In this document: in pieces, positions 1-44,140 of the stretch
How positions within the stretch are numbered: the stretch's first letter is position 1
Layout: the number at the start of each line of letters is the position of its first letter
Assembly (NCBI GenBank): GCA_964415155.1
Contig: CAYPZY010000001.1
Location: 1 to 44,140, forward strand
Length of the DNA stretch: 44,140 nt
Reading direction: 5' to 3'
Source: an uncultured Bdellovibrionales bacterium
GTDB taxonomy: Bacteria; Bdellovibrionota; Bdellovibrionia; Bdellovibrionales; SG-bin7
Notes under the pieces: model-generated
Told to the model about the DNA's origin: nothing
Seen by the model: only the letters and a program-made list of their open reading frames with translations
Databases searched by the model: none
Made by a program: the position numbers and the translations under genes

Positions 1-55
1 TTTAAAGGACACCCAAAATATAAAACAAGAATTGGAAGCTTCAAGAGAAGCTTTA
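1..55. repeat. Terminal direct repeat identical to 44086-44140 (circular-assembly overlap)
   Basis: 55/55 bases are identical at the two contig ends. The ORF starting at 44006 continues in frame into base 56. Confidence 0.95.
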
Positions 56-22481: not shown

Positions 22482-23399
22482 TTAAGCTCCAGGATTTCCA
22501 GCAGCTCCGCGCCACTGACCATATCCTTGAGCAAAACGACAAGATGCAATTAACTCCCATGCAAAAGCTTTTTTGTCGTAATCGGAACTTGTATTGAGAC
22601 CTTCACGAGTTAAAAACATCAAGCCATGATCTTCTTTAGGAGCTAAAATAAACCAGGCTGTAGAAGATGAAAGATATTGCCAACATCCGCCAGGCACCAA
22701 GGTTGCCGTCTGATAAATGGTATTGATTGCGTTGTTCGCATTCTCAGGCTCAAAATTCGATTTTAACAATCGAGCAGCAACATCTTGAAGATCTTGAGGA
22801 ACCACCAAATACTGCATTTGATAGCGAAGTAATTGCCCATCTTCGTTAACGGTCTCTTGTAAAATATTTCGAAGTTCGATGAATGAAGTGCGAGATAAAG
22901 CAGAAGCTGCCGCCGGACGATTGATGCCGAATCCAGGTGCATTTTCTAAAGGATGTGTGGTCGAAAATAAAGACACCCCATCGTAGCCGGCAACCGTAAA
23001 TCCATCGTCCAAAACTTCAGCGGCGGACAATTCTTTAATTTCAAACATACCTTTCGAAAAAGAATCCGTGGCACGTTTGATAAAATTGAATTTGCCATCA
23101 TCCACTGTCTCTTTTGAAATTCTATAACCAGTCGCGTATGTCGGCGCGGTGTAGGTCTTTTTAAAACCCGTCTTGATAGTCTGAAAAGTAACCGGAGCAT
23201 TTTCAGGCTTAACAGAAGGATTTCTCAAACCTGAGAGTGTGGTCGTTTGATAAATATCCGTTGACATCATTTCCTCATTGAAGAGTAAAGGAATCATCGA
23301 GGGATAAGAATCTGCTTTTGCTGAAACGACCGCTTCAAGTTCTGGCAATTTTGATTCGCCAAAAAAATCTGCAAAATTACTTCTTAAATTGGTTGGCAT
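22482..23399 (-). CDS. major capsid protein candidate (305 aa, HK97-fold size class)
   Basis: Strong AAGGAGG SD. The position (portal - scaffold-like - x - x - this gene) and the size fit a major capsid protein. The call was not verified by search. Confidence 0.55.
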   Translation of the reverse strand: MPTNLRSNFADFFGESKLPELEAVVSAKADSYPSMIPLLFNEEMMSTDIYQTTTLSGLRNPSVKPENAPVTFQTIKTGFKKTYTAPTYATGYRISKETVDDGKFNFIKRATDSFSKGMFEIKELSAAEVLDDGFTVAGYDGVSLFSTTHPLENAPGFGINRPAAASALSRTSFIELRNILQETVNEDGQLLRYQMQYLVVPQDLQDVAARLLKSNFEPENANNAINTIYQTATLVPGGCWQYLSSSTAWFILAPKEDHGLMFLTREGLNTSSDYDKKAFAWELIASCRFAQGYGQWRGAAGNPGA

Positions 23400-24472: not shown

Positions 24473-24521
24473 TACTTACCCCTTCCTTTAATTTTTAATT
24501 AAACTTGTACAAAAGTCAATC

Positions 24522-24549
24522 TAATTAAATATAATTATAATTAATTTTA
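24522..24549 (-). promoter_or_regulatory. Conserved AT-rich 28-nt motif upstream of the capsid cassette (late promoter/operator candidate)
   Basis: TAATTAAATATAATTATAATTAATTTTA matches 30252-30279 at 26/28 positions. Both copies lie 30-80 nt upstream of the first gene of a minus-strand unit. Confidence 0.4.
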
Positions 24550-24575
24550 ATATAATTTATTTAAATTAAAATTAA

Positions 24576-25250
24576 TTAAGCAATCTTAAGTTTACGATGA
24601 GCTTCGTACTTGTCTTGGTTAATACCAAAAAAAGCCGCGAATTCTTTCTCACGCTCACCCATTTTCTTTTTTCCATCCCCAGCTCCATCGCTACCTTCAA
24701 CAAAGTTATTTTTGTTAGAGATAGTGGCGCGAGCGATATTCATACGAGACGCTGCACGATTCACTGCGTTCCATGCCGCGTCAGGTTGATTACGAGCAAC
24801 CTTGGTCATCATGTTGAATTCTTTCCGCGCCTCCATTAAAAGCTTGCTATTCTCATCATAAAACCCAGGATAGTAAGTCTTAATCATATTTTCGTATTCA
24901 TTCTTTTGCTCTTTGGCTGATAAGTTTTCATCAACCTCCGCCAAAATTTCTTGCTTGCTTGGAGCCTTCTTTGTAACAGCCTTATCAATTAAATTGAGAA
25001 TGGCAGTCGATTGAGCGTCATCTAAACCCAATGCTTCAATCTCAGCCTGATATTCTCCATGAGAAGAGTTTGTTTTTTGAGGGGTTGGATTACTGTTTTG
25101 AGAACTTTTTAAGCCCTCCACAAGACCCTCAAACTTACTCTGAATATTTGACACCGCACTCTCGACCAACATTCTACTTTCGTTTACAATCTCTTGCTTG
25201 AAAGCCGTTGGGTCAAAAGTGTTTTTATTTTCCTCATTTTGTTCTGGCAT
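24576..25250 (-). CDS. scaffolding-protein candidate (224 aa)
   Basis: Acidic, helical and low-complexity. Located between the portal and capsid genes. Confidence 0.4.
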   Translation of the reverse strand: MPEQNEENKNTFDPTAFKQEIVNESRMLVESAVSNIQSKFEGLVEGLKSSQNSNPTPQKTNSSHGEYQAEIEALGLDDAQSTAILNLIDKAVTKKAPSKQEILAEVDENLSAKEQKNEYENMIKTYYPGFYDENSKLLMEARKEFNMMTKVARNQPDAAWNAVNRAASRMNIARATISNKNNFVEGSDGAGDGKKKMGEREKEFAAFFGINQDKYEAHRKLKIA

Positions 25251-25844: not shown

Positions 25845-28172
25845 TTATTCTCCTTCTGGGTTAGGTGGTTCTTCCTCTCCCCCTTGCCCGCCGCCCCCTC
25901 CGGGGGCCTCCTGTGGGGCCTGGGGATTGATTTCAATATTATTGCCTTGCTGACCTAGAGTAGGGGACTGATTCTCCCCTGTCGGATTCGTGACATTTTG
26001 AGGTCGGTTAATTGTGGCTAAAAACCTTTGATGTTCACCAATCGCCCAATCCAAAACAGCCATAGCGTTGGAATTTACCATTCCATGCTCAGACTCAATC
26101 TGAGCCTGATCGGAATTTTTAATCTCCGTAAATTTGCCGATCTTCATTTGATGTTCTGGATCATTCAAAATGATCGGCGGTTTTAAGCCTTGCATAATCA
26201 AAAGTAGTTCAGCCTGAATAGGCATGGCAGGCATATCGTCCGGCTTTGTAATGAATTTATAGATTTGTTGTTTACCCATCTTACGAAGTAATTCATCGTA
26301 GATCGCGTAAACGTTATGAGGACGCACAACCCCTGTATTGAGTCCAATGGGCTGAAGAAGAAACTGAGCAGCGACTTGCGCGTTGCGCATCTGACCCTCA
26401 CGGTTCATGGTCTGAGAATTAGCGTAAATACCAAAATGGACTCGCCCACGCACCTCTGCCTTATTCAAAGTTTCATACGTGATCTCACCATTCTCATTGC
26501 GTAACGGTATTCCATCTTCGCCGATGACTGTAATCTTTAAACTCTCCGGCATTTGAGCCATCGAGTCATAATAAAGCCCCTCGAACAATGCGCTCACACA
26601 CTGCTTCGCGCGGGTTACGAGTGGGTCCAAATTCACGTCAGTCTGCCCCAAAACATCCCTGACTCCCTGCGCAGACCGAAGGGGACCCACTGTTGGCCCG
26701 ACCTGACCCGAACTTAAAGGTCCTAAAGAAGTTGATTGATAAGCAAAACTTAATAGAGTGGATTGTAACCCGGCACTCCAGTTTGGATTTGTGCGCCATT
26801 CAAAAAATCGAATATCATTATTCGGATCATCACATTTGATACCCAATCCCGGTTCAATTCGTACCTCACCCGGATCAAAGTTCGATCCCCCACGATAACC
26901 GAACATGGGTTGATTCGCCAGCAAACCAGCGTCAATTGATTGATTAACCAACATATCTAAAGCTTCACTTAAAGAATATTGAGTCTCCACAACACCGCGA
27001 CCAAGGCTTCTTCGCGGGCGGCGATAAAGATGAGCCATGTGAAGTGGTAATTTTCCGGTGCTTGATTCACGATCTAGAAAAGTCCAGCGTGCTAATTTTC
27101 TTGTATTGGTATTAACGAAATAAATTAAATGATCGCAAATTCTTGAAGTGCTTTTCAGCGGAGTCTTGTCATACACGCAAAGAAACTCATAAACATCTTC
27201 ATCGCCCTGCGCGTTTTGCGTATCCACTCCGCTCGCCCTATCACGCACCCGCTCTACATTTGCAGCACCTCTAGAACCTGCTGTAGAGAAATTCCGCTTC
27301 ACAGGTTTCGTTGCCAAAATTTCATTTACCACATCTTCATCGAAGAATTGACTTTGACTAAATTGAATAAGCTGGCTTGGTGTAAAATAACAAACCTTCA
27401 TGACTGTTTCGTGAAGATCTAAGTTGGTGGAGTCTGCCACATAACCTTTAAACAAAACATAAAGCGGATCTTCTGCGATAACTATGGGACCATTAAATAC
27501 TGTACGGACAATTGATTTTTCCACATAAGGAAGTTTTAAAATTTGCTTCGACATCTCCGCAAAATCTTTTTCTTCGGTGTCTTCCAACATCTTAATCAAA
27601 TCACGCCGCATCGCCATGAACTCACGATTCTCTTCCACCACCACCGCGCGCCGCTGATCCACGCACCACGCCCTTGAGAAGATGCCAACCCCTAAAGTAG
27701 AGAGGTCCCACGCCCAATCGTCAATCGCGTTATAGATGCCGTTGTTATAATTCGCATAGCGCATCAAAATATATTTCATCAATAATTCTATTTTTTGAAT
27801 TCGTGCAGAATCGAGCTCTTCTTGCGGCTCAATAAAAAACCAAGGGTAAGAAAAGAAGACCGCCTGCAAAATTCTCGCGTGCATATTATTGCATTGGATT
27901 TCAGGCAGCGGCATGTGGAGATTCGACGACCCATCCCACAACCCGCGCCGAATGGGAGTTAGATAATCGTCAAAACCAATATAAAATTCTTCCACTCGGT
28001 CGATCCAATTGAAACGGTCAATAGTAAATTGGTCGAATTTCTTCATCGCACGATCAACCAAAAAATCGGTATCTACCGGCAAGTCCGGGATGCGGTAAAC
28101 AGGGTCAACCGGGCGATGGATAATGGGATCATTATATTTAATAATTTTTTGATCGGAGGTATTAATTGGCAT
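25845..28172 (-). CDS. portal protein candidate (775 aa from ATG 28172; ORF open to 28229)
   Basis: Large ORF immediately after TerL. A GAGGAAA SD precedes ATG 28172, and the overlap with the terL stop is 11 nt. The tail is acidic and Gly-rich (PGGGGGQGGEEE). Confidence 0.6.
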   Translation of the reverse strand: MPINTSDQKIIKYNDPIIHRPVDPVYRIPDLPVDTDFLVDRAMKKFDQFTIDRFNWIDRVEEFYIGFDDYLTPIRRGLWDGSSNLHMPLPEIQCNNMHARILQAVFFSYPWFFIEPQEELDSARIQKIELLMKYILMRYANYNNGIYNAIDDWAWDLSTLGVGIFSRAWCVDQRRAVVVEENREFMAMRRDLIKMLEDTEEKDFAEMSKQILKLPYVEKSIVRTVFNGPIVIAEDPLYVLFKGYVADSTNLDLHETVMKVCYFTPSQLIQFSQSQFFDEDVVNEILATKPVKRNFSTAGSRGAANVERVRDRASGVDTQNAQGDEDVYEFLCVYDKTPLKSTSRICDHLIYFVNTNTRKLARWTFLDRESSTGKLPLHMAHLYRRPRRSLGRGVVETQYSLSEALDMLVNQSIDAGLLANQPMFGYRGGSNFDPGEVRIEPGLGIKCDDPNNDIRFFEWRTNPNWSAGLQSTLLSFAYQSTSLGPLSSGQVGPTVGPLRSAQGVRDVLGQTDVNLDPLVTRAKQCVSALFEGLYYDSMAQMPESLKITVIGEDGIPLRNENGEITYETLNKAEVRGRVHFGIYANSQTMNREGQMRNAQVAAQFLLQPIGLNTGVVRPHNVYAIYDELLRKMGKQQIYKFITKPDDMPAMPIQAELLLIMQGLKPPIILNDPEHQMKIGKFTEIKNSDQAQIESEHGMVNSNAMAVLDWAIGEHQRFLATINRPQNVTNPTGENQSPTLGQQGNNIEINPQAPQEAPGGGGGQGGEEEPPNPEGE

Positions 28173-29709
28173 AATAAAAATTTCCTCTTCCTGTTCTTTG
28201 GTATGGGTTTTGTCTTTGGTAAGCACCATTGTAGGTACGCATCATCGCTGCACTCTGGGCGGGCGTTTCAAAACGGGGAGCCTTGGTCTCAATATAACGA
28301 TCACAGTCAATCAGATCGTTCGACTTCGCGATCGGTTTCACCTCATCGCCCTGCACCGTCTTCTTGGGCCATTGGTAATGGACAAGCTCTTTCTTGTACT
28401 CCACGCAATTCTTAAACACGTATTGCTGCACTCTAGACTCGCCCTTCTCATCCTTGACCACCCGATAAAGATCGCGCAATTTTCGAATACCCGCATGCAA
28501 CCAATCTCTCTTGCCCGCCATCTGCGGCATAAGGTGCTCACCGCACTCGCGCAAATAGCGTCGCAGCTCATCGTATTGATTTATTTTAAAATGGAGATCT
28601 TTTTGATTTAAAGAAGTATCCGAGACAGAGCAGACCACTTCAGCGCCCTCGGAGCGAAGGTCTTCTCTCACGAGGGAAATTTCCCTCGCAAATTCAGCCA
28701 TTCCGCCATCAAACTTCAACTCGCGCACCACATACCGCTCATTGCGTTCATTAATCGCTTTCCACAACACGGCATGCGCTTTGCCAGGATGCGGATCAAT
28801 CCCCTCATAAATCGAAAAATCTGCGCCCAGTTTAAACGGATTCACGTCGTGGACGAACGAATCGTAGGTGTCTATCACTAACCCCTCAAGCTTACGGAAC
28901 TTGCCGTAGAATCGAACCTCGCGCTCCGCAGGGGTCATTTCATCGAAGTAGAGTTTTCGAATCTCCGGGGGAACGAAGATATTATCGTCCATTGTGCCAT
29001 CAAAACATTGTACATACTTTTTCTTGCCCGTTAAGCCCGGTTCCCATAAATCATCAAATAACCACGGTTCGGACAGCGGCGTTGCCGTGATCCAAATTAT
29101 GCCAGCAAAATCCACGATACCGCGGAAATTAGCAATGTACAGCTCGCGTGGCGGCGGTTCATCAAACGCCACATAGTGCCAATTAGACCCCTCAGCCTTG
29201 GCAATCGATTGATCGTAGGTACCGAATCTTATCTCGGAGCCATTAGCGAAGTTTAAGCCTACCAATTGCCCATTGTTATTTAAATGCCTGCCCCGCTTCT
29301 TCGCCAAGTATTTCTCCGGCAACCATTCATCAATCTTCTTCGCAAAGGTTTCCATGAGCATGGAGTACGACTCCGAGTAAATCTTCCCACGGTTGGGTAC
29401 GGGGATCTTCTTATGTGGATGAATGCCCAGGGCAATTTGAAACGCTTCTAATGCCGAAGCAGTTGTCTTGCCCCAGCGATTGCCTGTCACGACAATGCGC
29501 ACCGTGGCGTTGGAACGATGGAATGCCTCTTGACCATCGTAGACGCCTGGAGGTGGGTTAGGGTCTCGCGAATATTTGCCGTTGTGTGGGGTGTAGGATA
29601 AAAGTTTGGAGTCCGACCATGCTTGCTCTTGCTCCGTACAAAGCTTGATTAAAGCAATCAAGTCCTCTTTATTGGAGGGCAGCGACTCTGTGGTGGTCGG
29701 TTCAGTCAT
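28162..29709 (-). CDS. terL: terminase large subunit
   Basis: Walker A VVTGNRWGKTT and Walker B HYVAFDEPP. ATG 29709 forms an ATGACTGA overlap with the upstream stop. The longer 29787 start lies inside the upstream gene. Confidence 0.8.
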   Translation of the reverse strand: MTEPTTTESLPSNKEDLIALIKLCTEQEQAWSDSKLLSYTPHNGKYSRDPNPPPGVYDGQEAFHRSNATVRIVVTGNRWGKTTASALEAFQIALGIHPHKKIPVPNRGKIYSESYSMLMETFAKKIDEWLPEKYLAKKRGRHLNNNGQLVGLNFANGSEIRFGTYDQSIAKAEGSNWHYVAFDEPPPRELYIANFRGIVDFAGIIWITATPLSEPWLFDDLWEPGLTGKKKYVQCFDGTMDDNIFVPPEIRKLYFDEMTPAEREVRFYGKFRKLEGLVIDTYDSFVHDVNPFKLGADFSIYEGIDPHPGKAHAVLWKAINERNERYVVRELKFDGGMAEFAREISLVREDLRSEGAEVVCSVSDTSLNQKDLHFKINQYDELRRYLRECGEHLMPQMAGKRDWLHAGIRKLRDLYRVVKDEKGESRVQQYVFKNCVEYKKELVHYQWPKKTVQGDEVKPIAKSNDLIDCDRYIETKAPRFETPAQSAAMMRTYNGAYQRQNPYQRTGRGNFYYAN

Positions 29710-30223
29710 TGGACTCCTCTTCGGTGGTGGACATGGGGATCGCCTGGGGCGATTCGGTGGATGTTTGAGACTGAAGATCTTCCTCAAACTCCCCTTCGAG
29801 GACCTCTCCCGACTGATCTTCCTTCATGGCACTCAAAAGCTTCTGCACATCAAAATTCGGGTTCAAATGCTTTAAACTGCGGATCTTCGATAAAAGAATG
29901 GCGACCAATTGATTCTCCGGAAGTTTCTGGTACTCCATCGTGTGCTCAATCTTACTCACCACCCCATGCCCAGACTGACCCAACAAAAACGCACAAGCAT
30001 TATAAGAAACCGAGTCCGACTTGCTAAACGCCAACTCCATCATGCGGTGCTGCACGTCGGGGAGCGTGATTGTCTTCATCTTATCAATGTTACGCTCTTG
30101 ATAAGGACCCTCCAGCGCACGGCGCCAATCAAAGGTGTCCGCATAATCCTCGCTGTGGGAATCATGGACTTCCTTACCCTCCGGTTCCTCATACCAATCT
30201 TTGCAAAGTGAATCGTGACCCAT
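29702..30223 (-). CDS. small terminase subunit candidate (173 aa)
   Basis: Positional evidence only: it is the first gene of the late arm and is translationally coupled to terL. Confidence 0.35.
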   Translation of the reverse strand: MGHDSLCKDWYEEPEGKEVHDSHSEDYADTFDWRRALEGPYQERNIDKMKTITLPDVQHRMMELAFSKSDSVSYNACAFLLGQSGHGVVSKIEHTMEYQKLPENQLVAILLSKIRSLKHLNPNFDVQKLLSAMKEDQSGEVLEGEFEEDLQSQTSTESPQAIPMSTTEEESND

Positions 30224-30251
30224 AAGAACTTTGACTTAACTTGAATAGATT

Positions 30252-30279
30252 TAATTAAATATAATTATGTTTAATTTTA
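30252..30279 (-). promoter_or_regulatory. Second copy of the conserved AT-rich 28-nt motif, upstream of the terminase operon
   Basis: TAATTAAATATAATTATGTTTAATTTTA matches 24522-24549 at 26/28 positions. Partial copies lie at 30631-30646 and 30671-30683. Confidence 0.4.
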
Positions 30280-30848
30280 TTTAAAGTAAATACAATTTAT
30301 ACTTAATTATGTAACATTGTGCATAAAAAGTCTATTATATTTTTAAATATGTTTATTTGTTTGTGTTTAAATAAATGAGATGAATGACGGGGTTTGGGTG
30401 GGGGAGAATATGTTGTGAGGTTGGGTTGTGGTACGCTGTTACACGACTACGCTGTATTGCAGCGATGCCGGGCTTTGAGAGATTTATTTAAATAGAAGTG
30501 TTAATGTGAAGTTTGCGGCCTTAATGGGTAGGCATACCTCCCGGCGCGTCGACTCGGCCCAACCCCCTCCGCGTCAACCGAAACGAAGGTCGCTGCCATG
30601 CCGCGGTGCGCGACGCTGCAATGTTATGTATAATTATGCTTAATTAATATTAATTTAGTATTGTTATTATTAATTAAATATAACTACACCTATGTTTTCT
30701 TGCGGTCCGATATGCACTTTGTGAGTGGTCGCGGTCCAGCGTTGCAGGTTACAAGGTTCGCATAACATGTAGTATGTAACATTCTTGCGTAAGTGCTTGA
30801 TTTTGCGTTGATCGAAAAAAGTTATCCACAAGTGAAATAAATATTTGA

Positions 30849-31365
30849 AAAAGTGTGGTAGTGGCACGTGGTTTGCATTACCACACTTTTCGGTCATTTT
30901 GGTTACACTAAATTCACTTTATTTTTCGGAAGTTTAACTATAAGTTTTTTCAATTCTGTGGTCCTTATATATATAGGAAAGTTTTATAATATAATTATAT
31001 TATATTATGTACAGAATTTTATGACCATATATATATGGTCATTTTCAGCAAATTATAAAACTTTCATAGATTAGAAATCGAAGGACCACACTTCTGAAAA
31101 AACTTATAGTTAACTATATGATAAATAAGGGGAAAAAAGTGTAACTTTTTTTCCGTGCCAAACTTATAAGTGCTTGAAATATAAAGAGAAGCTAAAAATA
31201 GCATTTTGGTTACACCGCTGCGCCGCACTACCACACTTTGAAAAAACTTATAGTTAAACACATGACAAATAAAGAGAATTTAGTGTAACTTTTTTAAGGC
31301 CAATATTTACAAATACTTGAAATCTAAGTGTTTTATTTTTAATAAAAAAACCGCAACGCCGCGAT
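30849..31365. repeat. Iteron-like repeat scaffold (candidate origin / divergent control region)
   Basis: ACCACACTT occurs four times, plus one variant. The 19-22-nt core TGAAAAAACTTATAGTTAA occurs three times, once inverted. Two tandem units of about 144 nt lie at 31084-31228 and 31229-31365. A 12-bp inverted repeat lies at 30849-30860 / 30879-30890. Confidence 0.85.
31021..31042. repeat. Perfect 22-bp palindrome ATGACCATATATATATGGTCAT at the symmetry centre
   Basis: The sequence is self-complementary. It is flanked by a 14-bp inverted repeat (30977-30990 / 31052-31065) and a second (TA)n tract at 30966-30975. Confidence 0.9.
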
Positions 31366-31461
31366 GCCGCGTCAAGCAAAATCGTATTCTGTACAAAATA
31401 TATTTTTTTATGAGGTGTACACACCCCAATTTATAGCCATAAATTATGTACAGAATATTTT

Positions 31462-31499
31462 ATTTTGTACATAATTTTTTATTTTGTACATAATTTTTT
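31462..31499. repeat. Two perfect tandem 19-nt units ATTTTGTACATAATTTTTT
   Basis: Direct reading shows 31462-31480 equals 31481-31499. The units are part of a TGTACA hexamer cluster. Confidence 0.9.
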
Positions 31500-31512
31500 A
31501 TTAGGGTAAAAT
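31484..31512 (+). promoter_or_regulatory. sigma70-like promoter candidate (TTGTAC-17-TAAAAT)
   Basis: The hexamers lie at 31484-31489 and 31507-31512. A sister candidate, TTGTAC-18-CATAAT, starts at 31465. The AT-rich context makes false positives likely. Confidence 0.3.
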
Positions 31513-31651
31513 TATACCCACCTATCTATCAAAATCCCCTTACCATTATTATATCCACCATTAAAAAAACTTTTCCAACCTTTATCACCCCCGACACCCC
31601 CCAAACAGATTTAATAAATCTAAATTATTTTATTTAAATATATTTTTTTAG

Positions 31652-31680
31652 TTGACATTATATTTAAAAAGATTTACAAA
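31652..31680 (+). promoter_or_regulatory. sigma70-like early promoter candidate (TTGACA-17-TACAAA)
   Basis: A perfect -35 hexamer at 31652-31657 is followed by a 17-nt spacer and TACAAA at 31675-31680. An A/T-rich UP-like tract lies upstream. The site is about 100 nt before the first early gene. Confidence 0.4.
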
Positions 31681-31783
31681 TTCTTTATCGTCGCAATACC
31701 GCGACGCTGCAAAATTCAAAACGCAAAGCAGTAACACGCAACATACAAAACTAAACCGCGCAAAGCGCAAAGGAGAAAAACAC

Positions 31784-32044
31784 ATGACGCAAATCAATTC
31801 AAATTACGGTCGCATTAAGGCATGGCCGGGCGAAGCCCCTACCCAAACATCCATCAATCGATCAGAGGTGAGTCGAGCATTGGCGAAGGCAATTGCTTAT
31901 AAGAACTGCGGAAAAGATTTAGAGGCGATGGAATGGGCGAGGAAGTTAGTGATTCAATTGCAGTGTGCGGACATCCTCGGTGAAGACCAAGATTTCGTAG
32001 ACAAATCCTCAATGGCCGATCGAATGGGGGTGTCTCATGTCTAA
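31784..32044 (+). CDS. first early protein (86 aa), hypothetical
   Basis: AAGGAGA SD at 31770-31776 precedes ATG 31784. The TTG at 31652 in the ORF track is the -35 hexamer. Confidence 0.6.
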   Translation: MTQINSNYGRIKAWPGEAPTQTSINRSEVSRALAKAIAYKNCGKDLEAMEWARKLVIQLQCADILGEDQDFVDKSSMADRMGVSHV

Positions 32045-32921
32045 AGAAATCTACGAGCAAATTACTAATACCTTTCTTGCTGCCTTAGAAGAGGAGCGAA
32101 TTCCTTGGCGCAAACCGTGGAGCGCGGGGCCGCGAAACTTCAGTACAGGCTCCGAGTACCACGGAATAAACTTTTGGTTGTTATCGATGATAGCCGAGAA
32201 GAATCAATGGCCCAATAGGTGGGCCACGTTTAACCAGGTGAAGGGTTTAGATGGCTCTATTGTGGCGGGCTCGAAGGGAACTCGGATTTACTTCTGGAAG
32301 CCTTTGAAGATTAAGGGGAAGGGGACCAAAACCGAAGGTGGGGAGAGCACCCAAGAGAAGTATCGAACGATACCCTTGCTTAAGACCTTCACGGTGTTCA
32401 ACCTTGCGCAATGCAGCGGACTCCCCCTAAAAGTGACCGAAAGCACCCAAAAGGTTGAACCAAGTTTAGAAGCGGATCAAATTACCACCGCCTATTGCGA
32501 ACGAGAAGGCCTCAAGGTTGAGACTTCTCATCGTGCTGCCTATTCACCCTCAAAGGACCTCATTTATATGCCTGACGTGGGAGCATTTACGGAGCGCGCG
32601 GAGTATTACTCCACTTTCTTTCATGAGCTTGTGCATTCGACCGGGCACGGAGCTCGTCTTTCACGGGAGGGGATAGTGGAGACGCATTACTTTGGGGATG
32701 AGACGTACTCGAAGGAGGAATTGATTGCGGAAATGGGTGCCTCGTTTCTTTGCAGCAAAGCGGCGGTGTCGTCTCCCCAGTCGTTCGCAAATTCGAAGGC
32801 GTACATTCAGGGCTGGATCAGCGCGTTAAAGAATGACCCGAAGTTGCTGATGCAAGCGGCGAGCAAAGCGCAGCGCGCGGCGGACTATGTGCTGAATGGG
32901 AAAGGGGAGGTGCAATCATGA
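32037..32921 (+). CDS. ardC: ArdC-like antirestriction protein (N-terminal ssDNA-binding domain plus zincin HExxH domain)
   Basis: The N-terminal IPWRKPW ... YHGINFWLL and C-terminal FFHELVHSTGHGARLSRE closely match the ArdC family pattern. Confidence 0.75.
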   Translation: MSKEIYEQITNTFLAALEEERIPWRKPWSAGPRNFSTGSEYHGINFWLLSMIAEKNQWPNRWATFNQVKGLDGSIVAGSKGTRIYFWKPLKIKGKGTKTEGGESTQEKYRTIPLLKTFTVFNLAQCSGLPLKVTESTQKVEPSLEADQITTAYCEREGLKVETSHRAAYSPSKDLIYMPDVGAFTERAEYYSTFFHELVHSTGHGARLSREGIVETHYFGDETYSKEELIAEMGASFLCSKAAVSSPQSFANSKAYIQGWISALKNDPKLLMQAASKAQRAADYVLNGKGEVQS

Positions 32922-34359: not shown

Positions 34360-34460
34360 AATACTATTTGATATTATTTTAATTTTGATTTAAAATGAAA
34401 TAAATCTGCAAAATTGTAAAATGGAACACTTAACAATAACAACCTAACAAAGGAGAAAAT

Positions 34461-35191: not shown

Positions 35192-35527
35192 ATGTTCAAA
35201 CTTCATCAAAATACAATTCGAGAAATATCTCGGCTGTTCCCCTACATTGATAAATCTCAATTGTTTTTGATCGATGTTGAGGACGTGCTTGAGGAAGTGG
35301 AGGACCCTCGCGAAAAAGTATACAAAATAAATCTGCAAAATGGCGAAATGGAAACATGCAAATTTAAGAAAGGCCAAGATCTTTTCGACGAGCTGCAACG
35401 CGCGAAGTGCAGCATCGCGGTGCGCAAAGTGGAAAATGACGAAGCTCAAATCTTAAATGAACTGTACTTGCCAATTAAACCCTACGTTTGGGTGGCCTTG
35501 GCGAGTACGAGAGAATCACTACACTAA
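35192..35527 (+). CDS. hypothetical protein (111 aa)
   Basis: AGGAGA SD. It begins 3 nt after the protease stop. Confidence 0.55.
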   Translation: MFKLHQNTIREISRLFPYIDKSQLFLIDVEDVLEEVEDPREKVYKINLQNGEMETCKFKKGQDLFDELQRAKCSIAVRKVENDEAQILNELYLPIKPYVWVALASTRESLH

Positions 35528-36411: not shown

Positions 36412-36669
36412 ATGGATGATTTATACAATTATAAAACTTCTTATTCGGATGCAGAAATAATGGCTTTGGCGGATAACGCGCTTGTGCGAACGATGATTAA
36501 GTTTGCCAGTTCTTATGGGTACAACAAATCAAATTTCACGTCTAGCGCTGCAATTGCGGCTAAAGCAATGTATCTTCGGTTCGAAAAGGAATGCTTGGCG
36601 CGGTTAAAGCAACGCCACAACCCGGAATGTTTAGTCGGTGCTAAACTTCCACTCCATGAATCTATATGA
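36412..36669 (+). CDS. hypothetical protein (85 aa)
   Basis: ORF coupled by ATGA to the downstream helicase gene. Confidence 0.5.
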   Translation: MDDLYNYKTSYSDAEIMALADNALVRTMIKFASSYGYNKSNFTSSAAIAAKAMYLRFEKECLARLKQRHNPECLVGAKLPLHESI

Positions 36670-38036
36670 TTGATTTAAAAGAACATCAAAAAGAAGGCAT
36701 GGAATTCCTGAAGAGCCGCACCGCCGGTGGCCTCTTCTACGAAATGGGTTTGGGGAAAACTCTAACCACGCTAGCAACGCTGGAAGAAAAGAATGTATGG
36801 CCGGTGCTCGTCGTATGCCCTCTCTCTGTGGTGGGTGTATGGGCGGCGGAGGTTAAAAAGTTTGGGTTCAAGAGGAAGGTCCTCTCCCTGGTCGGGAGTC
36901 GGTTCGAACGATTGGATTTATTGGAAGAGCCCGCGGATATTTACGTCATCAATTATGATGGCATGCGAATACTTGCGGACGAACTTCTGAAAAGAAAATG
37001 GGGTGCAATCGTTTTGGACGAATCCCACCGGATCAAGAATATCACCTCCACCCAAACCAAGGTTGCATTGAAGTTAAGTAAATGTGCCGAGCACCGCTAC
37101 ATTCTCACAGGTACTCCAATCACCAAAACCCCAGAGGACGTATGGTCTCAAATTTATTTCCTGGACCCCACTCACTTCACAAACTTCTATGCGTTTAGGG
37201 CCAGGCATGTGGAATATAAGGTAAGGCAAGTGCGAACGCCGGGGGGCATGAGAGAAGTTCGAATCCCCTATCGGTTTAAAAACCTGGAAGAACTTGAGGA
37301 GAAGATGGGGAGAATTTGTCTACGAAAAACGAAGGCTGAATGCTTGGACCTTCCGGAAAAAATCTACAAGAAAATTTATTGCGAACTCGAAGGGGACCAA
37401 AAGACACACTACTACGAACTAAAACATAGCTTAGTCGCAATGCTGGAGAGCGGCAACTTTGAAGTGCGGGCTGGGGGGGCGCTCGTTCAAAAGCTAAGAC
37501 AGGTCTGCCAAGGTTTTTTATACGTCAATGAAGATACTCACTTAACCAAGGAAAACGTAAAATTAAAATATTTAAAAGACCTGCTTGAGGACATTCAAGG
37601 TGAAAAGAAAATTCTGTACACATATTTTAAAGCCGAAACGGAATTGCTCTTAAAAGAATTATCGAAGACTCAAAAGGTTTTTTATTATGATGGCTCCCCT
37701 GATGAGCGCGCGCTCACGATTGCAGGGTTTGAAGAGCATGAAGGCGACGCCATTCTATTAATGCAAATCGATCAGGCAATTGGAATGAACTTAGCATTTG
37801 TGAGCCACGTAATTTATTATTCAAATTCATGGAATTACGCGACGCGGTTACAAAGCGAAGATCGAGCTCACAGAATCGGACAAAAAAATTCTGTGGTGTA
37901 TTACGATTTTGTTTGCCCGCGAACTATTGATGAGCATGTCTTAGATCTGCTTCTAATCAAAAAAGATTTAGCGGACCAAGTAACGGGAGACGTTAAAAAA
38001 CTTGCGCAAAATTATTTAAATAAATACAATTCTTAA
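36666..38036 (+). CDS. SNF2-family helicase/ATPase
   Basis: Motif I GLGKT, motif II DESH, motif III LTGTPI and motif VI QSEDRAHRIGQ are all present in the canonical order. Confidence 0.85.
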   Translation: MIDLKEHQKEGMEFLKSRTAGGLFYEMGLGKTLTTLATLEEKNVWPVLVVCPLSVVGVWAAEVKKFGFKRKVLSLVGSRFERLDLLEEPADIYVINYDGMRILADELLKRKWGAIVLDESHRIKNITSTQTKVALKLSKCAEHRYILTGTPITKTPEDVWSQIYFLDPTHFTNFYAFRARHVEYKVRQVRTPGGMREVRIPYRFKNLEELEEKMGRICLRKTKAECLDLPEKIYKKIYCELEGDQKTHYYELKHSLVAMLESGNFEVRAGGALVQKLRQVCQGFLYVNEDTHLTKENVKLKYLKDLLEDIQGEKKILYTYFKAETELLLKELSKTQKVFYYDGSPDERALTIAGFEEHEGDAILLMQIDQAIGMNLAFVSHVIYYSNSWNYATRLQSEDRAHRIGQKNSVVYYDFVCPRTIDEHVLDLLLIKKDLADQVTGDVKKLAQNYLNKYNS

Positions 38037-39301: not shown

Positions 39302-41902
39302 GTGGAAGACCTTACGGGTTACTTTCCCTTAATTTGGGGCAGGGCGGTACTGCGCCAAGAACATCGATACGAACTTAAACTTAAACGAGGTTTCTCAGAT
39401 GCCATAATTGATTTATTGCAATTCAAATCGGCGGGTGAATACCTTGGCAAACAATCGCCAAAAGAATGGCCTACTGCCATCAAAGCACCGCTGTGGCGCG
39501 ACAATATATTAATCCCCTACTTCAATGAGAAGGGGGATCTGTATCATATTAGACCCCACAAGGATGGCTTTAAAGACGTTGGTGTCCAGCCCTATATCCC
39601 CTACCCTCTCCTGGGGGAGGACACCAGCCATCTTGTGTTAGCAGAATCTGAATTCAAAGCTGCCGCCTCTTGCGTTATGGGCGTTCCGGCGATTGGGATA
39701 CCTGGAATAACCTCTCACAGTCGTAAAAATCTTCCAAACCTATTAAGAGTCCTCGAAGCGTTGAAGTGCAAAAAGGTTACTATCTGCTTCGACAACGAAA
39801 CAAAAGAACAAAAATCAGATTGGACCAAACGCTATGACACAATCATTTATGAGATCATCATGGCGAGCGAGCTCAACAGCAAGGGGTACGCAACTAAGAT
39901 TGCCAGGCTTAAGGATGAATGGAGAAAGGATGGAAAGGCCGACATCGATGGAGTACTTGCCCAAGGAGTTGCTCACGAAAACTACAAGGAGTGCATTTTT
40001 GATGCTTTATCCCCCACTGAATACCGAAAGACTTTAAAATTATTACCTGTCCATAAAGCCTATGTAGACCGAAAAATAGATGCTCATTTTTACGCGGGAC
40101 CTATCGAAGAAAAAGACGGCTTTATTTTTTACAAAACAAAAGACGATGCTCGGATTCGGATCGCTAATTTCACAATGAAGATTATTCACACGCTCATGAA
40201 CGACAACCTCGCAGAGCGTTTTGTGAAAATTACCAGCCCATACGGGATGAGCCATACTCGAATAATCACCCCGGATATAATGGTTTCCCTCCCCTCCTTC
40301 CAACGATTCCTATACGAAATTGGAGACTACGAGTTTTTAGGAAGACCCGAAATGCTTCACGCTTTGTGGTCGTACGTGATGCTGAAGCAGGACGGACAGT
40401 ACGTCACGAAGCTTAAGTATTATGGATACGACAAAGAAGCGAAGGTTTGGTTCTTTGAAAACGGTGCGTACCGCGATGGAAACTTTTACGAGATGGGAGA
40501 TAATAAGATTGTTTGGATCGATGGGAATGGGTTTCTTTTACCGGACACCTTGAATGAATTCGACCTTCCGCGCCTGTCCGATGAGACGGAGTTTGACACA
40601 GGGGAGCCTATTTCAGGCGTAGAGAATCTATTAAAAATGATCGAAACTAAAATGTCGAATATTCTAGAAAAGAATATTGCCAAAATGCTTTTAGGTTGGA
40701 CGCTGGGTAATTTTTTCATGCCGGAAATTTTAGCCTCGTTTAAAGGTTTTCCGTTTCTATTCTTCTACGGAAAATGGGAGGAAGGGAAATCGACCACCTC
40801 TAATTGGCTCGCTCAATTCTTTGGATTTACTCTCAAGGGAGTCCCCTTCAGTTCCTCTGAACCAGGCATCCGCAACGCCGTGAACCAGTTGAGCATGGTC
40901 CCTATTTGGTTGGAAGAATACCGAAATGACAATGCGAACATCCGAGAAAAGAATTCCCTCCTCCGATCGATCTATGATCGATCGTCGATCATCAAAGCCA
41001 CTCGGACGCCAGGGGAAATAAAGACTTACCTATTAAGGTCTTCCCTCATAATCTCTGGGCAAGAACACCCGAAAGATTCCGCACTCTGCTCGCGTTGCCT
41101 GCTCGTCGCTCTCCGTGTCAAAAAAGACAAAGTAAATTATGAGTGGATGATGCGCAACGCGAGTCAGTTTAACGTAATCGGTCACTGGGTCTTGATGAAT
41201 AAGAATAAATTTTGGCCCCTTATTCACGCGCGAGCCCTGGAGTATATTAAGGCAATGGACGCGAACTTAAAAGAGATGGGGGTAAGAGTTAAAAGCTCTC
41301 ACGCCCTACTTGGCGCAATCTGTGACGTGTTTTTTGGAGAGGACCAAGACTTCACGGATTTTATAGGCACACGCGCGGTGGTGGAAAATGTAAAGATCAA
41401 TAGTTACGATTCTCTCTCGGTCTTTTACGACGATATTTTGACCATGTTTATGTCACAAAAAATTAAGTTTAGATTCTTGCAATTAGTGACGATGAAGTCT
41501 CCAAACACAGGTTATTCAAAAGACGCCGTTAATTTTTGGTTCGCTGGGGTATTTAATGAATGGGAACTTACCTACAAAAAGCATCGAGAAGATATTCCAG
41601 CCAGTCGCGCCGCGATGCGCGACCTGCTCAGCCGTGAACCTTATGTAATTCAAGCCGAGGCCAGTGGTCGCATGGACGGAAAGACAATGAAGGTTTTTAA
41701 GCTCGATTATGAACATCCAAAGTTTCCAAAACCACTTTTGGAAATCATTAAAATTTATCAACAAGAAGTAAGGAGCTCCGAGGTCGAGACTTGGGTTCCT
41801 TATCCAGGGGAGGAATCCAATGACGACAGAAATAACACCGGAGGAAAAGAAGCGCCGCAGCGCAGTGGGGCGGCGGTCAAGAAACAAGGGTGGGAGAGGT
41901 GA
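39302..41902 (+). CDS. primase-helicase (Toprim-like N-terminal half, P-loop NTPase C-terminal half)
   Basis: Toprim-like LVLAESEFKAA ... TICFDNETKE, and Walker A FFYGKWEEGKST. GTG start follows a GGGGGG run. 866 aa. Confidence 0.7.
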   Translation: MEDLTGYFPLIWGRAVLRQEHRYELKLKRGFSDAIIDLLQFKSAGEYLGKQSPKEWPTAIKAPLWRDNILIPYFNEKGDLYHIRPHKDGFKDVGVQPYIPYPLLGEDTSHLVLAESEFKAAASCVMGVPAIGIPGITSHSRKNLPNLLRVLEALKCKKVTICFDNETKEQKSDWTKRYDTIIYEIIMASELNSKGYATKIARLKDEWRKDGKADIDGVLAQGVAHENYKECIFDALSPTEYRKTLKLLPVHKAYVDRKIDAHFYAGPIEEKDGFIFYKTKDDARIRIANFTMKIIHTLMNDNLAERFVKITSPYGMSHTRIITPDIMVSLPSFQRFLYEIGDYEFLGRPEMLHALWSYVMLKQDGQYVTKLKYYGYDKEAKVWFFENGAYRDGNFYEMGDNKIVWIDGNGFLLPDTLNEFDLPRLSDETEFDTGEPISGVENLLKMIETKMSNILEKNIAKMLLGWTLGNFFMPEILASFKGFPFLFFYGKWEEGKSTTSNWLAQFFGFTLKGVPFSSSEPGIRNAVNQLSMVPIWLEEYRNDNANIREKNSLLRSIYDRSSIIKATRTPGEIKTYLLRSSLIISGQEHPKDSALCSRCLLVALRVKKDKVNYEWMMRNASQFNVIGHWVLMNKNKFWPLIHARALEYIKAMDANLKEMGVRVKSSHALLGAICDVFFGEDQDFTDFIGTRAVVENVKINSYDSLSVFYDDILTMFMSQKIKFRFLQLVTMKSPNTGYSKDAVNFWFAGVFNEWELTYKKHREDIPASRAAMRDLLSREPYVIQAEASGRMDGKTMKVFKLDYEHPKFPKPLLEIIKIYQQEVRSSEVETWVPYPGEESNDDRNNTGGKEAPQRSGAAVKKQGWER

Positions 41903-42197
41903 AAGAGAATTTGTACAGATTTTAAAAGACCACGGCTGGGATGCGCGAAGGTCTCAGCAATATTGTGGCAAGGGGGGCGACGAGGATGTGATTTGCGAGG
42001 CCCTCCCAGTCCACCATGAGGTCAAGTACCGTCAATCCCTAAACGTCCATCAGGCCATCGCACAAGCCGTCAAAGATTGTATTAAAAGCAAGTGGCGATG
42101 CGTGGTGTGGAAGAAAGATCGCGCCGGCTGGGTAGCTCTTTTACCCCTGGAGGATTATCTGGACATCATGAAAGAACTGACTGAATTAAAAAAATAA
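41820..42197 (+). CDS. PD-(D/E)xK nuclease, Holliday-junction-resolvase-like
   Basis: GERE ... D ... HEVK spacing is typical of small phage PD-(D/E)xK resolvases. GGAGG SD lies 7 nt before the ATG. It overlaps the primase 3' end by 83 nt. Confidence 0.55.
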   Translation: MTTEITPEEKKRRSAVGRRSRNKGGRGEREFVQILKDHGWDARRSQQYCGKGGDEDVICEALPVHHEVKYRQSLNVHQAIAQAVKDCIKSKWRCVVWKKDRAGWVALLPLEDYLDIMKELTELKK

Positions 42198-44013: not shown

Positions 44014-44140
44014 CTTACAATCTCAACTCTTACAATTGATCGAGTCTCAATTACCAGAGCAAACCGCTGGGGTGCTGCGATCCTATTTAAAGGACACCCA
44101 AAATATAAAACAAGAATTGGAAGCTTCAAGAGAAGCTTTA
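44006..44140 (+). CDS. 5' portion of junction-spanning coiled-coil protein (continues at base 56)
   Basis: ATG 44006 overlaps the upstream stop. The frame stays open to the contig end, and its last 18 codons lie within the 55-bp terminal repeat (bases 2-55). Confidence 0.6.
   Translation, partial: MGDLQSQLLQLIESQLPEQTAGVLRSYLKDTQNIKQELEASREAL
44086..44140. repeat. Terminal direct repeat identical to 1-55
   Basis: Exact 55-bp identity with the contig start. Confidence 0.95.

What the first reader, a model, noticed from the sequence alone, without database searches (positions are those of the whole stretch)
30849..31365. Iteron-like repeat scaffold with global inverted symmetry in the 1.56-kb divergent region (candidate origin or early/late switch)
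No credible ORF explains 30224-31783, yet the region is highly ordered.

- The 9-mer ACCACACTT occurs at 30880-30888, 31085-31093 and 31230-31238 (+) and at 30851-30859 (-). A variant lies at 30956-30962 (-).
- A 12-bp inverted repeat (30849-30860 / 30879-30890) brackets a CACGTG palindrome.
- The core TGAAAAAACTTATAGTTAA occurs at 31095-31113 and 31239-31257. It is perfectly inverted over 22 nt at 30932-30953 relative to 31238-31259.
- GTTACACTAAATTC (30902-30915) is inverted at 31276-31289.
- The right side is two tandem units of about 144 nt, each carrying CTTGAAAT and ACCGCnnCGCCGC sub-motifs. The left side is one inverted copy of about 60 nt of the unit's 5' part (the ACCACA-type 9-mer through GTGTAAC); the later sub-motifs are not seen there.
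- The centre holds a 14-bp inverted repeat (30977-30990 / 31052-31065) around a perfect 22-bp palindrome (31021-31042), plus two (TA)5-6 tracts that look like an unwinding element.

A 22-nt perfect inverted match is far beyond chance in 44 kb. The phage encodes a primase-helicase but no recognisable initiator or polymerase, so the protein that reads these sites is unknown.
Basis: partly seen in the sequence, partly recalled or inferred. Interest (0 to 1): 0.8.

Follow-up and report, generated by a model that had tools for sequence, protein, structure and literature searches.

The report
Probable phage replication origin and control region
The repeats are real and most likely mark the replication origin, interleaved with early promoters, of an uncultured 44-kb phage whose primase-helicase resembles known self-loading initiator helicases; this is an ordinary kind of element in a new phage lineage.

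Summary
The 19-mer occurs three times against 0.06 expected. The longest exact inverted match is 22 nt, against at most 17 in null sequences.

The core, 30902-31145, is a 244-nt imperfect palindrome. Its TA-rich centre is the least stable 200-bp stretch of the genome. It is flanked by one leftward and two rightward copies of a ~60-nt module.

No gene, tRNA or Rfam family explains the region. No other part of the genome carries comparable repeats. Several relatives (TerL 45-59% identical) have the same layout with different repeat sequences.

A confident AlphaFold model of the 866-aa primase-helicase matches SCCmec Cch and SaPI Rep. Both are self-loading initiator helicases. SaPI Rep reads iterons on both sides of an AT-rich centre.

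My best reading is a bidirectional iteron-plus-unwinding-element origin mixed with early promoters or operators (confidence about 0.5). A purely transcriptional control region is the main rival. This would be a new member of a known kind, of moderate interest, with no experimental support yet.

The parts
30849..30890 (.). Left outer element: the 12-bp inverted repeat AAAAGTGTGGTA / TACCACACTTTT (two ACCACACTT 9-mers facing each other) around CACGTG at 30865-30870.
30902..30962 (-). Unit C, the leftward-pointing copy of the ~60-nt module. It runs from the ACCACAG variant (30956-30962) through the 19-mer TGAAAAAACTTATAGTTAA (30934-30952) to AGTGTAAC (30902-30909).
   Evidence: 88% complementary to unit B over 52 nt, and 74% to unit A over 74 nt.
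30963..31071 (.). TA-rich centre and candidate DNA-unwinding element. It holds: (TA)5 at 30966-30975; a perfect 20-nt AT-only palindrome at 30985-31004; the 14-bp palindrome ATTATGTACAGAAT at 31004-31017; the perfect 22-bp palindrome at 31021-31042; and the 20-bp inverted repeat 30971-30990 / 31052-31071.
   Evidence: 30929-31128 is the least stable 200-bp window of the genome (z 3.5).
30902..31145 (.). The whole 244-nt imperfect palindrome (unit C, the centre, and the 5' module of unit A).
   Evidence: E 3e-24. (single-stranded DNA fold, z -13.8).
31085..31229 (+). Unit A, rightward. Its parts are ACCACACTT 31085-31093, the 19-mer 31095-31113, GTGTAAC 31139-31145, a -10-like TATAAG 31165-31170, CTTGAAAT 31173-31180, and ACCGCTGCGCCGC 31214-31226.
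31230..31373 (+). Unit B, rightward, a 144-nt tandem copy of unit A. Its parts are ACCACACTT 31230-31238, the 19-mer 31239-31257, GTGTAAC 31283-31289, ATTTACAAAT 31305-31314 (the same 10-mer as at the putative early promoter), CTTGAAAT 31316-31323, and ACCGCAACGCCGC 31350-31362.
31386..31502 (.). Four further copies of the 14-bp palindrome ATTNTGTACANAAT, at 31386, 31443, 31462 and 31481. The last three form a 19-nt tandem repeat (3.2 copies). They look like operators and overlap promoter-like hexamer pairs.
31652..31680 (+). Putative early promoter TTGACA-17 nt-TACAAA, 104 nt upstream of the first early gene (ATG at 31784).
   Evidence: Read. The exact 10-mer ATTTACAAAT is shared with unit B and with 42216. 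This is an inference.
30822..30830 (+). A single perfect DnaA-box consensus, TTATCCACA, just left of the repeat scaffold.
   Evidence: Such boxes are not clustered here, so this is weak evidence.
39302..41902 (+). Gene for the 866-aa primase-helicase, with a Toprim-like N-terminal part (DUF3854) and an MCM/Rep-like helicase part. It is the proposed reader of the repeats.

Best explanation
The 30849-31373 scaffold is most likely the phage's bidirectional origin of replication, built into the divergent early/late control region.

Anatomy. A TA-rich centre (30963-31071) melts easily. It is flanked by one leftward and two rightward copies of a phage-specific ~60-nt module: ACCACA, then TGAAAAAACTTATAGTTAA, then AGTGTAAC.

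Proposed mechanism:
1. The modules dock a sequence-specific initiator. The best candidate is the 866-aa primase-helicase, which has the fold of the SaPI Rep and SCCmec Cch self-loading initiator helicases.
2. One hexamer assembles on each side, facing the other, and the TA centre opens.
3. The protein's own Toprim domain lays primers, and a host polymerase extends them. No phage polymerase was found.
4. The 3' halves of units A and B, and the TGTACA palindromes to the right, probably act as early promoters or operators. Transcription and initiation would then be coupled at one locus.

What is shown: the repeat anatomy, its statistical significance, its uniqueness in the genome, the low helical stability of the centre, recurrence of the layout in several relatives, and the structural class of the helicase.

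What is inferred: that the helicase binds these modules, that replication starts here, and the promoter roles.
For: - The repeats are far beyond chance.
- The region does not look coding. Gene callers on independent contigs call nothing across window 30224-31085 and 31148-31783. The small ORFs hit no Pfam family. Copies of the module are read in different frames and differ by a 1-nt indel (sequence, ORFs).
- There is no tRNA or Rfam match.
- Genome-wide, the only long non-coding direct and inverted repeats lie in 30.2-31.8 kb. Nothing iteron-like lies in or after the helicase gene.
- 30929-31128 is the least stable 200-bp window of the genome.
- Relatives (TerL 45-59% identical) keep a 0.8-1.7 kb gap between terS and the early genes. 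A (TA)n tract sits inside the gap in 8 of the 11 examined.
- Four relatives carry their own repeats in both orientations in the gap. L008, L094 and L095 have them on opposite sides of the TA tract: L008 has ATGTTCAAT x8 or more with 45-nt inverted arms, L094 has 37-nt arms, L095 has AATAACTTACAA as 2 leftward and 2 rightward copies. L011 has CCGGTTGCACG-type repeats x8 and no TA tract.
- The AlphaFold model of the 866-aa protein has pLDDT 89. Foldseek top hits are Cch 5DGK (E 4e-15) and SaPIbov1 Rep 8TCH (E 1e-10) over about 585 columns, then PriRep1, PriRep5 and MCMs.
- Published work shows that SaPI Rep reads iterons placed on both sides of a central AT-rich region, with at least two per side pointing in opposite directions, and self-loads (PMC9371898). 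Cch2 binds direct repeats of its putative origin (PMC7581432).
- The cumulative GC-skew minimum falls at 30-31 kb.
Against: - There are no experimental data.
- The GC-skew minimum coincides with the flip in gene orientation, so it is not independent evidence.
- In SaPIs and SCCmec the origin lies immediately downstream of the helicase gene. Here it is about 8 kb upstream.
- The repeats are three long composite units, not 6-12 short iterons.
- A search with the C-terminal 267 residues alone gave no significant match. The best hits were weak winged-helix proteins (TcpK 5VFY, E 0.27; forkhead domains; Orc1/Cdc6). A DNA-reading winged helix is therefore not confirmed.
- Other AT-rich gaps (24.5 kb, 30.25 kb) are about as unstable at the 50-100 bp scale.
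- Relatives L003 and L021 show few repeats.
- Parts of the units resemble promoters, which a purely transcriptional reading would also explain.
Confidence: 0.5

Rival explanations
1. The scaffold is a purely transcriptional control region. It would hold tandem early promoters (units A and B, plus the TGTACA repeats) and a leftward promoter, with the repeated modules and the 14-bp palindromes serving as operators for a phage regulator that times early and late expression. It would have no role in replication.
For: - It lies exactly between the divergent late (terS, 30223 leftward) and early (31784 rightward) operons.
- Five exact copies of the palindrome ATTNTGTACANAAT occur only here. That is typical of a dimeric regulator's operators.
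- Promoter-like hexamer pairs overlap the palindromes and the centre.
- The 10-mer ATTTACAAAT is shared by unit B, the putative early promoter and the region upstream of the gene at 42264.
- Tandem strong early promoters are common in lytic phages (own knowledge, for example T7 A1-A3).
Against: - The conserved blocks of the three units do not line up with a conserved -35/-10 pair. Only unit A has good -10 hexamers (read).
- The promoter-like count in the region (13) does not exceed shuffles (8.5 +/- 3.1).
- This reading does not explain a 244-nt palindrome with a double (TA)n core, nor why a (TA)n tract recurs in 8 of 11 relatives whose repeats differ.
- A good promoter candidate already sits 104 nt before the first early gene.
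Confidence: 0.25
2. The scaffold is a packaging recognition site (pac- or cosB-like). The repeated modules on both sides of a central cut or bend region would be bound by the small terminase encoded next door.
For: - It lies in the gap next to the terS-terL genes (29702-30223 and 28162-29787).
- Known pac and cos sites use repeated elements in both orientations around a central site (P1 pac hexamers, lambda cosB R sites; own knowledge).
- The repeat sequences are phage-specific, as small-terminase specificity is.
Against: - The scaffold starts about 630 nt from terS.
- A separate GC-rich island (30385-30621), conserved at the sequence level in relatives, lies between the two. It is a better packaging-site candidate.
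- Contigs of 99%-identical variants end inside that island, not in the scaffold.
- The assembly breaks at 31085 and 31148 are explained by the repeats themselves.
Confidence: 0.08
3. The units encode small non-coding RNAs, or the 244-nt palindrome is transcribed into a long hairpin RNA with a regulatory or anti-defence role.
For: - The fold is very stable (z -13.8).
- A weak terminator-like hairpin with a T-run sits on the minus strand at 31371-31343.
Against: - No Rfam family matches even at E <= 5.
- The terminator-like feature is not repeated in unit A.
- The stability follows trivially from the palindrome.
- Relatives have no alignable sequence, so covariation cannot be tested.
Confidence: 0.05
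4. The palindrome is a target for a DNA-processing enzyme, such as a telomere-resolution site, a cruciform cut site or an inversion switch.
For: - The layout, a perfect 22-bp TA-centred palindrome nested inside further inverted repeats, resembles the N15 telRL/tos arrangement (own knowledge).
- A PDDEXK, resolvase-like ORF lies at 41820-42197.
Against: - No protelomerase, tyrosine or serine recombinase, or integrase was found among about 45 ORFs scanned. That set includes every ORF over 300 aa except 22482-23399, whose 306-aa counterparts in relatives hit a capsid family.
- The assembly reads straight through the site and closes into a circle.
Confidence: 0.03

Closest known systems
SaPI (staphylococcal pathogenicity island) origins read by Rep or PriRep self-loading helicases
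   Same: - Repeats sit on both sides of a central AT-rich region, with at least two per side pointing in opposite directions.
- The initiator is itself the replicative helicase and is fused to, or paired with, a primase.
- Repeat sequence differs between related elements (PMC9371898).
- The 866-aa protein matches SaPIbov1 Rep 8TCH (E 1e-10), PriRep1 7PDS and PriRep5 7OLA by fold.
   Different: - There is no detectable sequence similarity.
- SaPI origins lie just downstream of rep and use 6-12 penta- or hexanucleotide iterons. Here the locus is about 8 kb from the gene, and the repeats are three composite ~60-144-nt units inside a 244-nt palindrome.
- This element is a complete 44-kb phage, not a satellite.
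SCCmec Cch/Cch2 helicase and its putative origin
   Same: - This is the best structural match to the helicase part (5DGK, E 4e-15, about 585 aligned columns).
- Cch2 binds direct repeats in an intergenic putative origin that also carries inverted repeats (PMC7581432).
   Different: - The Cch2 site is a single 23-bp direct-repeat region downstream of its gene.
- Its primase is a separate protein of a different type.
- No large palindrome or (TA)n core is described in the passages read.
Satellite phage P4 ori/crr read by the alpha primase-helicase (own knowledge, not checked in a paper here)
   Same: - One polypeptide carries primase, helicase and a C-terminal origin-binding domain.
- Its cis sites contain repeats in direct and inverted orientation.
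- crr is two direct repeats of about 120 bp, which recalls the two 144-nt units here.
   Different: - P4 alpha is an SF3 (D5-like) helicase, whereas this protein's helicase part matches MCM/Rep-like folds.
- P4 needs two separate loci (ori and crr). Here everything lies in one locus.
Lambda-type iteron origins, and lactococcal phage c2/sk1 origins in the early/late intergenic region (own knowledge)
   Same: - Repeats lie next to an AT-rich stretch.
- In c2 the origin lies in the non-coding gap between divergent early and late genes and overlaps an early promoter.
   Different: - Lambda ori lies inside the O gene and is read by a dedicated initiator that recruits the host helicase.
- No O/P-like or DnaA-like initiator was found here.
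N15 telRL/tos telomere-resolution site (own knowledge)
   Same: - A perfect 22-bp palindrome is nested inside further inverted repeats, between the structural and early arms of the genome.
   Different: - No protelomerase gene was found.
- The assembly is circular, with no sign of hairpin ends.

Membership tests
Rep/Cch-type self-loading-helicase origin (SaPI, SCCmec) | The element encodes an MCM-like or Rep-like helicase that doubles as the initiator. | tested here: met
   AlphaFold model pLDDT 89. Foldseek hits 5DGK (E 4e-15) and 8TCH (E 1e-10), TM-score normalised to the target about 0.61. The match is structural only; sequence searches found nothing.
Rep/Cch-type self-loading-helicase origin (SaPI, SCCmec) | Repeats lie on both sides of a central AT-rich region, with at least two per side pointing in opposite directions. 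| tested here: met
   ACCACA-type sites lie at 30851(-) and 30956(-) on the left, and 31085(+) and 31230(+) on the right. The 19-mer lies at 30934(-) against 31095(+) and 31239(+). The TA-rich centre is 30963-31071.
Rep/Cch-type self-loading-helicase origin (SaPI, SCCmec) | The origin lies immediately downstream of the helicase gene. | tested here: not met
   No repeats lie in or after 39302-41902. The scaffold is about 8 kb upstream of the gene.
Rep/Cch-type self-loading-helicase origin (SaPI, SCCmec) | A C-terminal winged-helix domain recognises the iterons. | tested here: inconclusive
   The secondary-structure order at residues 745-801 (helix, helix, beta-hairpin) is compatible with a winged helix. 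The C-terminal model alone gives only weak hits to winged-helix proteins (best E 0.27).
Rep/Cch-type self-loading-helicase origin (SaPI, SCCmec) | The helicase binds and melts its cognate origin specifically. | not testable with these tools
   This needs EMSA, footprinting or melting assays.
Lambda-type iteron origin | A dedicated O-like initiator with the iterons inside its own gene. | tested here: not met
   No such family appeared among the early proteins scanned. The scaffold is non-coding.
DnaA-dependent origin | A cluster of DnaA boxes next to the unwinding element. | tested here: not met
   There is one perfect box at 30822 and one TTATGCACA at 30318. The other 20 near-matches are scattered over the genome.
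Protelomerase target (telRL) | A protelomerase gene and hairpin telomeres. | tested here: not met
   No matching Pfam family was found in the ORFs scanned. The assembly closes into a circle with a 55-nt overlap.
attP or an invertible switch | A tyrosine or serine recombinase encoded by the element. | tested here: not met
   None was found. All ORFs over 300 aa were scanned except 22482-23399, whose 306-aa counterparts in relatives hit a capsid family.
Known structured RNA families | A match to an Rfam covariance model. | tested here: not met
   Nothing reached the gathering score. Only chance-level hits appeared at E <= 5.

The most novel reading that the evidence does not exclude
The 244-bp palindrome, with its perfect TA-centred 22-bp core, might not be a simple protein-docking origin. 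It could instead be a cruciform- or hairpin-extruding DNA element, which the phage uses as a new kind of initiation or processing site. Examples would be hairpin-dependent loading or priming by the Toprim-MCM-like protein, or cleavage by the PDDEXK nuclease. Such a mechanism has no described counterpart among tailed phages of this type.
Probability: 0.06. Interest if true: 0.7.

Novelty: new member of a known kind. Interest (0 to 1): 0.33.

Why it matters
If confirmed, this would give a defined origin and a defined initiator for a widespread but uncultured lineage of 44-47 kb phages from groundwater, wastewater and sludge metagenomes. These phages have no cultured relative above about 26% protein identity.

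It would also extend the SaPI/SCCmec type of self-loading, MCM-like initiator helicase, here fused to a Toprim primase, from satellites and cassettes to complete lytic-type phage genomes. In this case the origin would sit away from the helicase gene, inside the early/late control region.

In practical terms, the locus would be the natural starting point for building replicons or for host-prediction tools for this lineage. It does not change any general principle.

Tried and rejected
- **Known RNAs.** Rfam at gathering score and at E <= 5, and tRNA/tmRNA searches, found nothing.
- **DNA homology.** The region has no match in the 50,697 phage records. The 19-mer and TerL peptide patterns have no match in IMG/VR. 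No close relative exists, so base-by-base conservation could not be tested. The only other contigs are 100% identical (L001, L114) or 99% variants that stop before the scaffold.
- **Coding.** The small ORFs have no Pfam hit. Copies of the module are read in different frames.
- **Enzymes that would point to other functions.** No protelomerase, integrase or invertase, ParA/ParB, RNA polymerase or DNA polymerase was found.
- **Alternative origin sites.** No repeats lie in or downstream of the helicase gene.
- **DnaA-box cluster.** Absent.
- **TTGAAAT as a lineage-wide promoter motif.** It recurs in the gap in several relatives, but with no consistent -10 partner or orientation. It is not linked to gene starts in the window.
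- **GC-rich island as a structured RNA.** The fold z-score is about 0 on both strands.
- **C-terminal domain of the helicase as a proven winged helix.** The domain-only fold search was not significant.
- **Sequence-level link of the helicase to solved structures.** None found.
- **Host assignment.** The only lead is one TerL homologue on a 3-kb contig binned as Candidatus Colwellbacteria. That is too weak to use.

Full report
**Context**

The window is a complete, circularly closed assembly. Its last 55 nt repeat its first 55 nt. It is a 44.1-kb tailed phage.
- Structural and packaging genes run leftward from 30223: a terS candidate at 29702-30223, TerL at 28162-29787, and an SU10-type portal at 25845-28229.
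- Early and replication genes run rightward from 31784: an 86-aa protein, ArdC at 32037-32921, an SNF2 helicase at 36666-38036, a primase-helicase at 39302-41902, and a PDDEXK nuclease at 41820-42197.
- The finding lies in the 1.56-kb divergent gap, 30224-31783.

Yes. Every motif is at the stated coordinates.
- The 19-mer TGAAAAAACTTATAGTTAA occurs three times, against 0.06 expected even with three mismatches allowed.
- Four of the five ACCACACTT copies in the genome are here.
- The longest exact inverted match (22 nt) and direct match (26 nt) exceed anything seen in Markov nulls, which reach at most 16-18.
30902-31145 is one 244-nt imperfect palindrome (E 3e-24). Its right arm is the start of unit A (31085-31229). 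Unit B (31230-31373) is a 144-nt tandem copy of unit A.
- As single-stranded DNA the palindrome folds with z = -13.8.
- One correction: the central inverted repeat is 20 bp (30971-30990 / 31052-31071), not 14 bp.
- One addition: a 14-bp palindrome, ATTNTGTACANAAT, has five exact copies, all in this gap. One lies at the centre (31004) and four lie at 31386-31494.

**What it is not**

- No tRNA or Rfam family matches.
- Gene callers on independent contigs of the same phage call no gene across window 30224-31085 and 31148-31783.
- The small ORFs have no Pfam hit. The repeat copies are read in different frames and differ by a 1-nt indel, so a protein does not explain the pattern.
- No protelomerase, recombinase, partition protein or polymerase was found among about 45 ORFs scanned. 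This argues against a telomere site, attP, an invertible switch or a centromere.

**Surroundings and relatives**

- No cultured phage is close. The best protein identities are about 26%, and there is no DNA match.
- TerL homologues at 45-59% identity come from metagenomic contigs of 44-47 kb. I fetched more than 100 loci.
- The DNA of the gap cannot be aligned between relatives, but the layout recurs.
- The gap between terS and the early genes is 0.8-1.7 kb.
- A GC-rich island lies 60-420 nt from terS.
- A (TA)n tract lies inside the gap in 8 of 11 relatives examined.
- Four relatives carry their own repeats in both orientations in the gap. In L008, L094 and L095 these sit on opposite sides of the TA tract. 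L008 has ATGTTCAAT eight or more times with 45-nt inverted arms. L094 has 37-nt arms around a TA palindrome. L095 has AATAACTTACAA as two leftward and two rightward copies. L011 has CCGGTTGCACG-type repeats about eight times but no TA tract.
- L019 and L013 have tandem arrays. L003 and L021 show little.
- A layout that is kept while the sequence changes is what a cis site read by a fast-evolving specific DNA-binding protein would show.

**A candidate reader**

- The 866-aa primase-helicase has homologues at 39-47% identity over about 94% of its length. Conservation falls after residue 600.
- Its AlphaFold model is confident (pLDDT 89).
- Its best PDB matches are SCCmec Cch (5DGK, E 4e-15) and SaPIbov1 Rep (8TCH, E 1e-10) over about 585 columns. 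PriRep1, PriRep5 and MCM proteins follow.
- These are self-loading helicases that also act as initiators. SaPI Rep reads iterons through a C-terminal winged helix. SaPI origins have iterons on both sides of a central AT-rich region, with at least two per side pointing in opposite directions (PMC9371898). Cch2 binds the direct repeats of its putative origin (PMC7581432).
- The window's scaffold has exactly this geometry. ACCACA sites lie at 30851(-) and 30956(-) against 31085(+) and 31230(+). The 19-mer lies at 30934(-) against 31095(+) and 31239(+). Between them is a centre that is the least stable 200-bp window of the genome (z 3.5).
- Nothing comparable exists elsewhere in the genome, including in and after the helicase gene.

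**Limits**

- The structural match is not backed by sequence similarity.
- A model of the C-terminal 267 residues alone gave only weak, non-significant hits. Those hits happen to be winged-helix DNA binders: TcpK (E 0.27), forkhead domains and Orc1/Cdc6.
- The scaffold is 8 kb from the helicase gene, unlike in SaPIs.
- The repeats are three long composite units rather than many short iterons.
- The GC-skew minimum at 30-31 kb coincides with the switch in gene orientation.
- Other AT-rich gaps are about as unstable at the 50-100 bp scale.

**Transcription**

- A plausible early promoter, TTGACA-17-TACAAA, lies at 31652-31680.
- Its 10-mer ATTTACAAAT recurs exactly in unit B (31305) and upstream of the gene at 42264. 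Unit A has TATAAG at the equivalent place.
- The 19-nt TGTACA tandem repeats create overlapping -35/-10-like pairs.
- The right-hand part of the scaffold is therefore probably also an array of early promoters or operators. I treat replication and transcription control as interleaved rather than exclusive. A purely transcriptional reading is the main rival, at 0.25.
- A packaging-site reading is weaker, at 0.08. A separate GC-rich island that is conserved in sequence lies between the scaffold and terS, and it is the better candidate.

**Verdict**

The origin reading is plausible and now has a candidate initiator. The statement that there is no initiator is wrong. The early/late switch idea is untested.
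- The best explanation is a bidirectional iteron-plus-unwinding-element origin read by a Rep/Cch-like primase-helicase and embedded in the early control region. My confidence is about 0.5.
- This is a new member of a known kind of element in a new phage lineage, and it is of moderate interest.

Noticed in passing
window 30385-30621: A GC-rich island lies between terS and the scaffold. It runs from a G-run (GGGTTTGGGTGGGGGAG) through TAGGC and ACTC to CCCAACCCCCTCC. It is the only part of the gap conserved at the sequence level in relatives, for example 'ACTCAACCCCC' in L016 and L021 and 'ACTCAGACCCCCC' in L008. It may be the cos or pac site. As RNA it folds no better than shuffled sequence (z about 0 on both strands).
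   Followed up: partly
window 30401-30404 (starts of contigs L112 and L115): Two independent assemblies of a 99%-identical variant (SRR35878594 and SRR35878595) end 3 nt apart inside the G-run of that island. This could be a physical genome end or an assembly or coverage artefact at the G-run.
   Followed up: partly
window 31004-31017, 31386-31399, 31443-31456, 31462-31475, 31481-31494: There are five exact copies of the 14-bp palindrome ATTNTGTACANAAT and none elsewhere in 44 kb. TGTACA-type sites also recur in the same gap in relatives L020 (5 copies), L005, L011 and L018. They look like operators for a conserved dimeric regulator or a host factor.
   Followed up: partly
window 30609-30621 and 31700-31712: The exact 13-mer CGCGACGCTGCAA occurs twice. 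Each copy lies inside a similar GC-rich motif (CGCTGCCATGCCGCG... and CGTCGCAATACCGCG...). The second lies just downstream of the putative early promoter, so it may form a 5' leader hairpin.
   Followed up: no
window 30822-30830: A single perfect DnaA-box consensus, TTATCCACA, lies immediately left of the scaffold. Near-matches are twice as frequent genome-wide as in shuffles (22 against 10.7) but are not clustered here.
   Followed up: partly
window 1-55 and 44086-44140: The last 55 nt are identical to the first 55 nt. This is a k-mer overlap from a circular assembly, so the true genome length is 44,085 bp.
   Followed up: yes
window 31085 and 31148 (ends of contigs L114 and L001, SRR14932510): Another assembly of the identical phage breaks at the start of unit A and inside its T-run. 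The 144-nt tandem units therefore confuse short-read assemblers, and the number of tandem units in the window could be under- or over-collapsed.
   Followed up: partly
TerL homologues P0003, P0012, P0023, P0037, P0040, P0043, P0046, P0049, P0056, P0064, P0067: Many relatives have TerL proteins of 780-890 aa, several of them with Hint/intein Pfam domains. Inteins in the large terminase therefore look common in this lineage. The window's own TerL has none.
   Followed up: no
window 34398-34426 and 35325-35353: A 29-nt direct repeat, AAATAAATCTGCAAAAT(T/G)G..AAATGGAA, occurs 927 nt apart in the early region at 90% identity. It may be a repeated regulatory site.
   Followed up: no
window 24488-24587: This is the least stable 50-100 bp stretch of the genome. 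It is an AT-only nest of palindromes in a short gap between late genes, and is probably a late promoter or terminator region.
   Followed up: no
L013:1-90: The contig of a relative starts with a perfect tandem array of an 11-nt unit (TATATGACTTT, eight or more copies), about 550 nt upstream of terS. This is another phage-specific repeat array in the same gap.
   Followed up: no
P0066 (MBI2594748.1): One TerL homologue (55% identity) sits on a 3.2-kb contig binned as Candidatus Colwellbacteria (Patescibacteria). This is the only hint of a host for the lineage, and it is a weak one.
   Followed up: no
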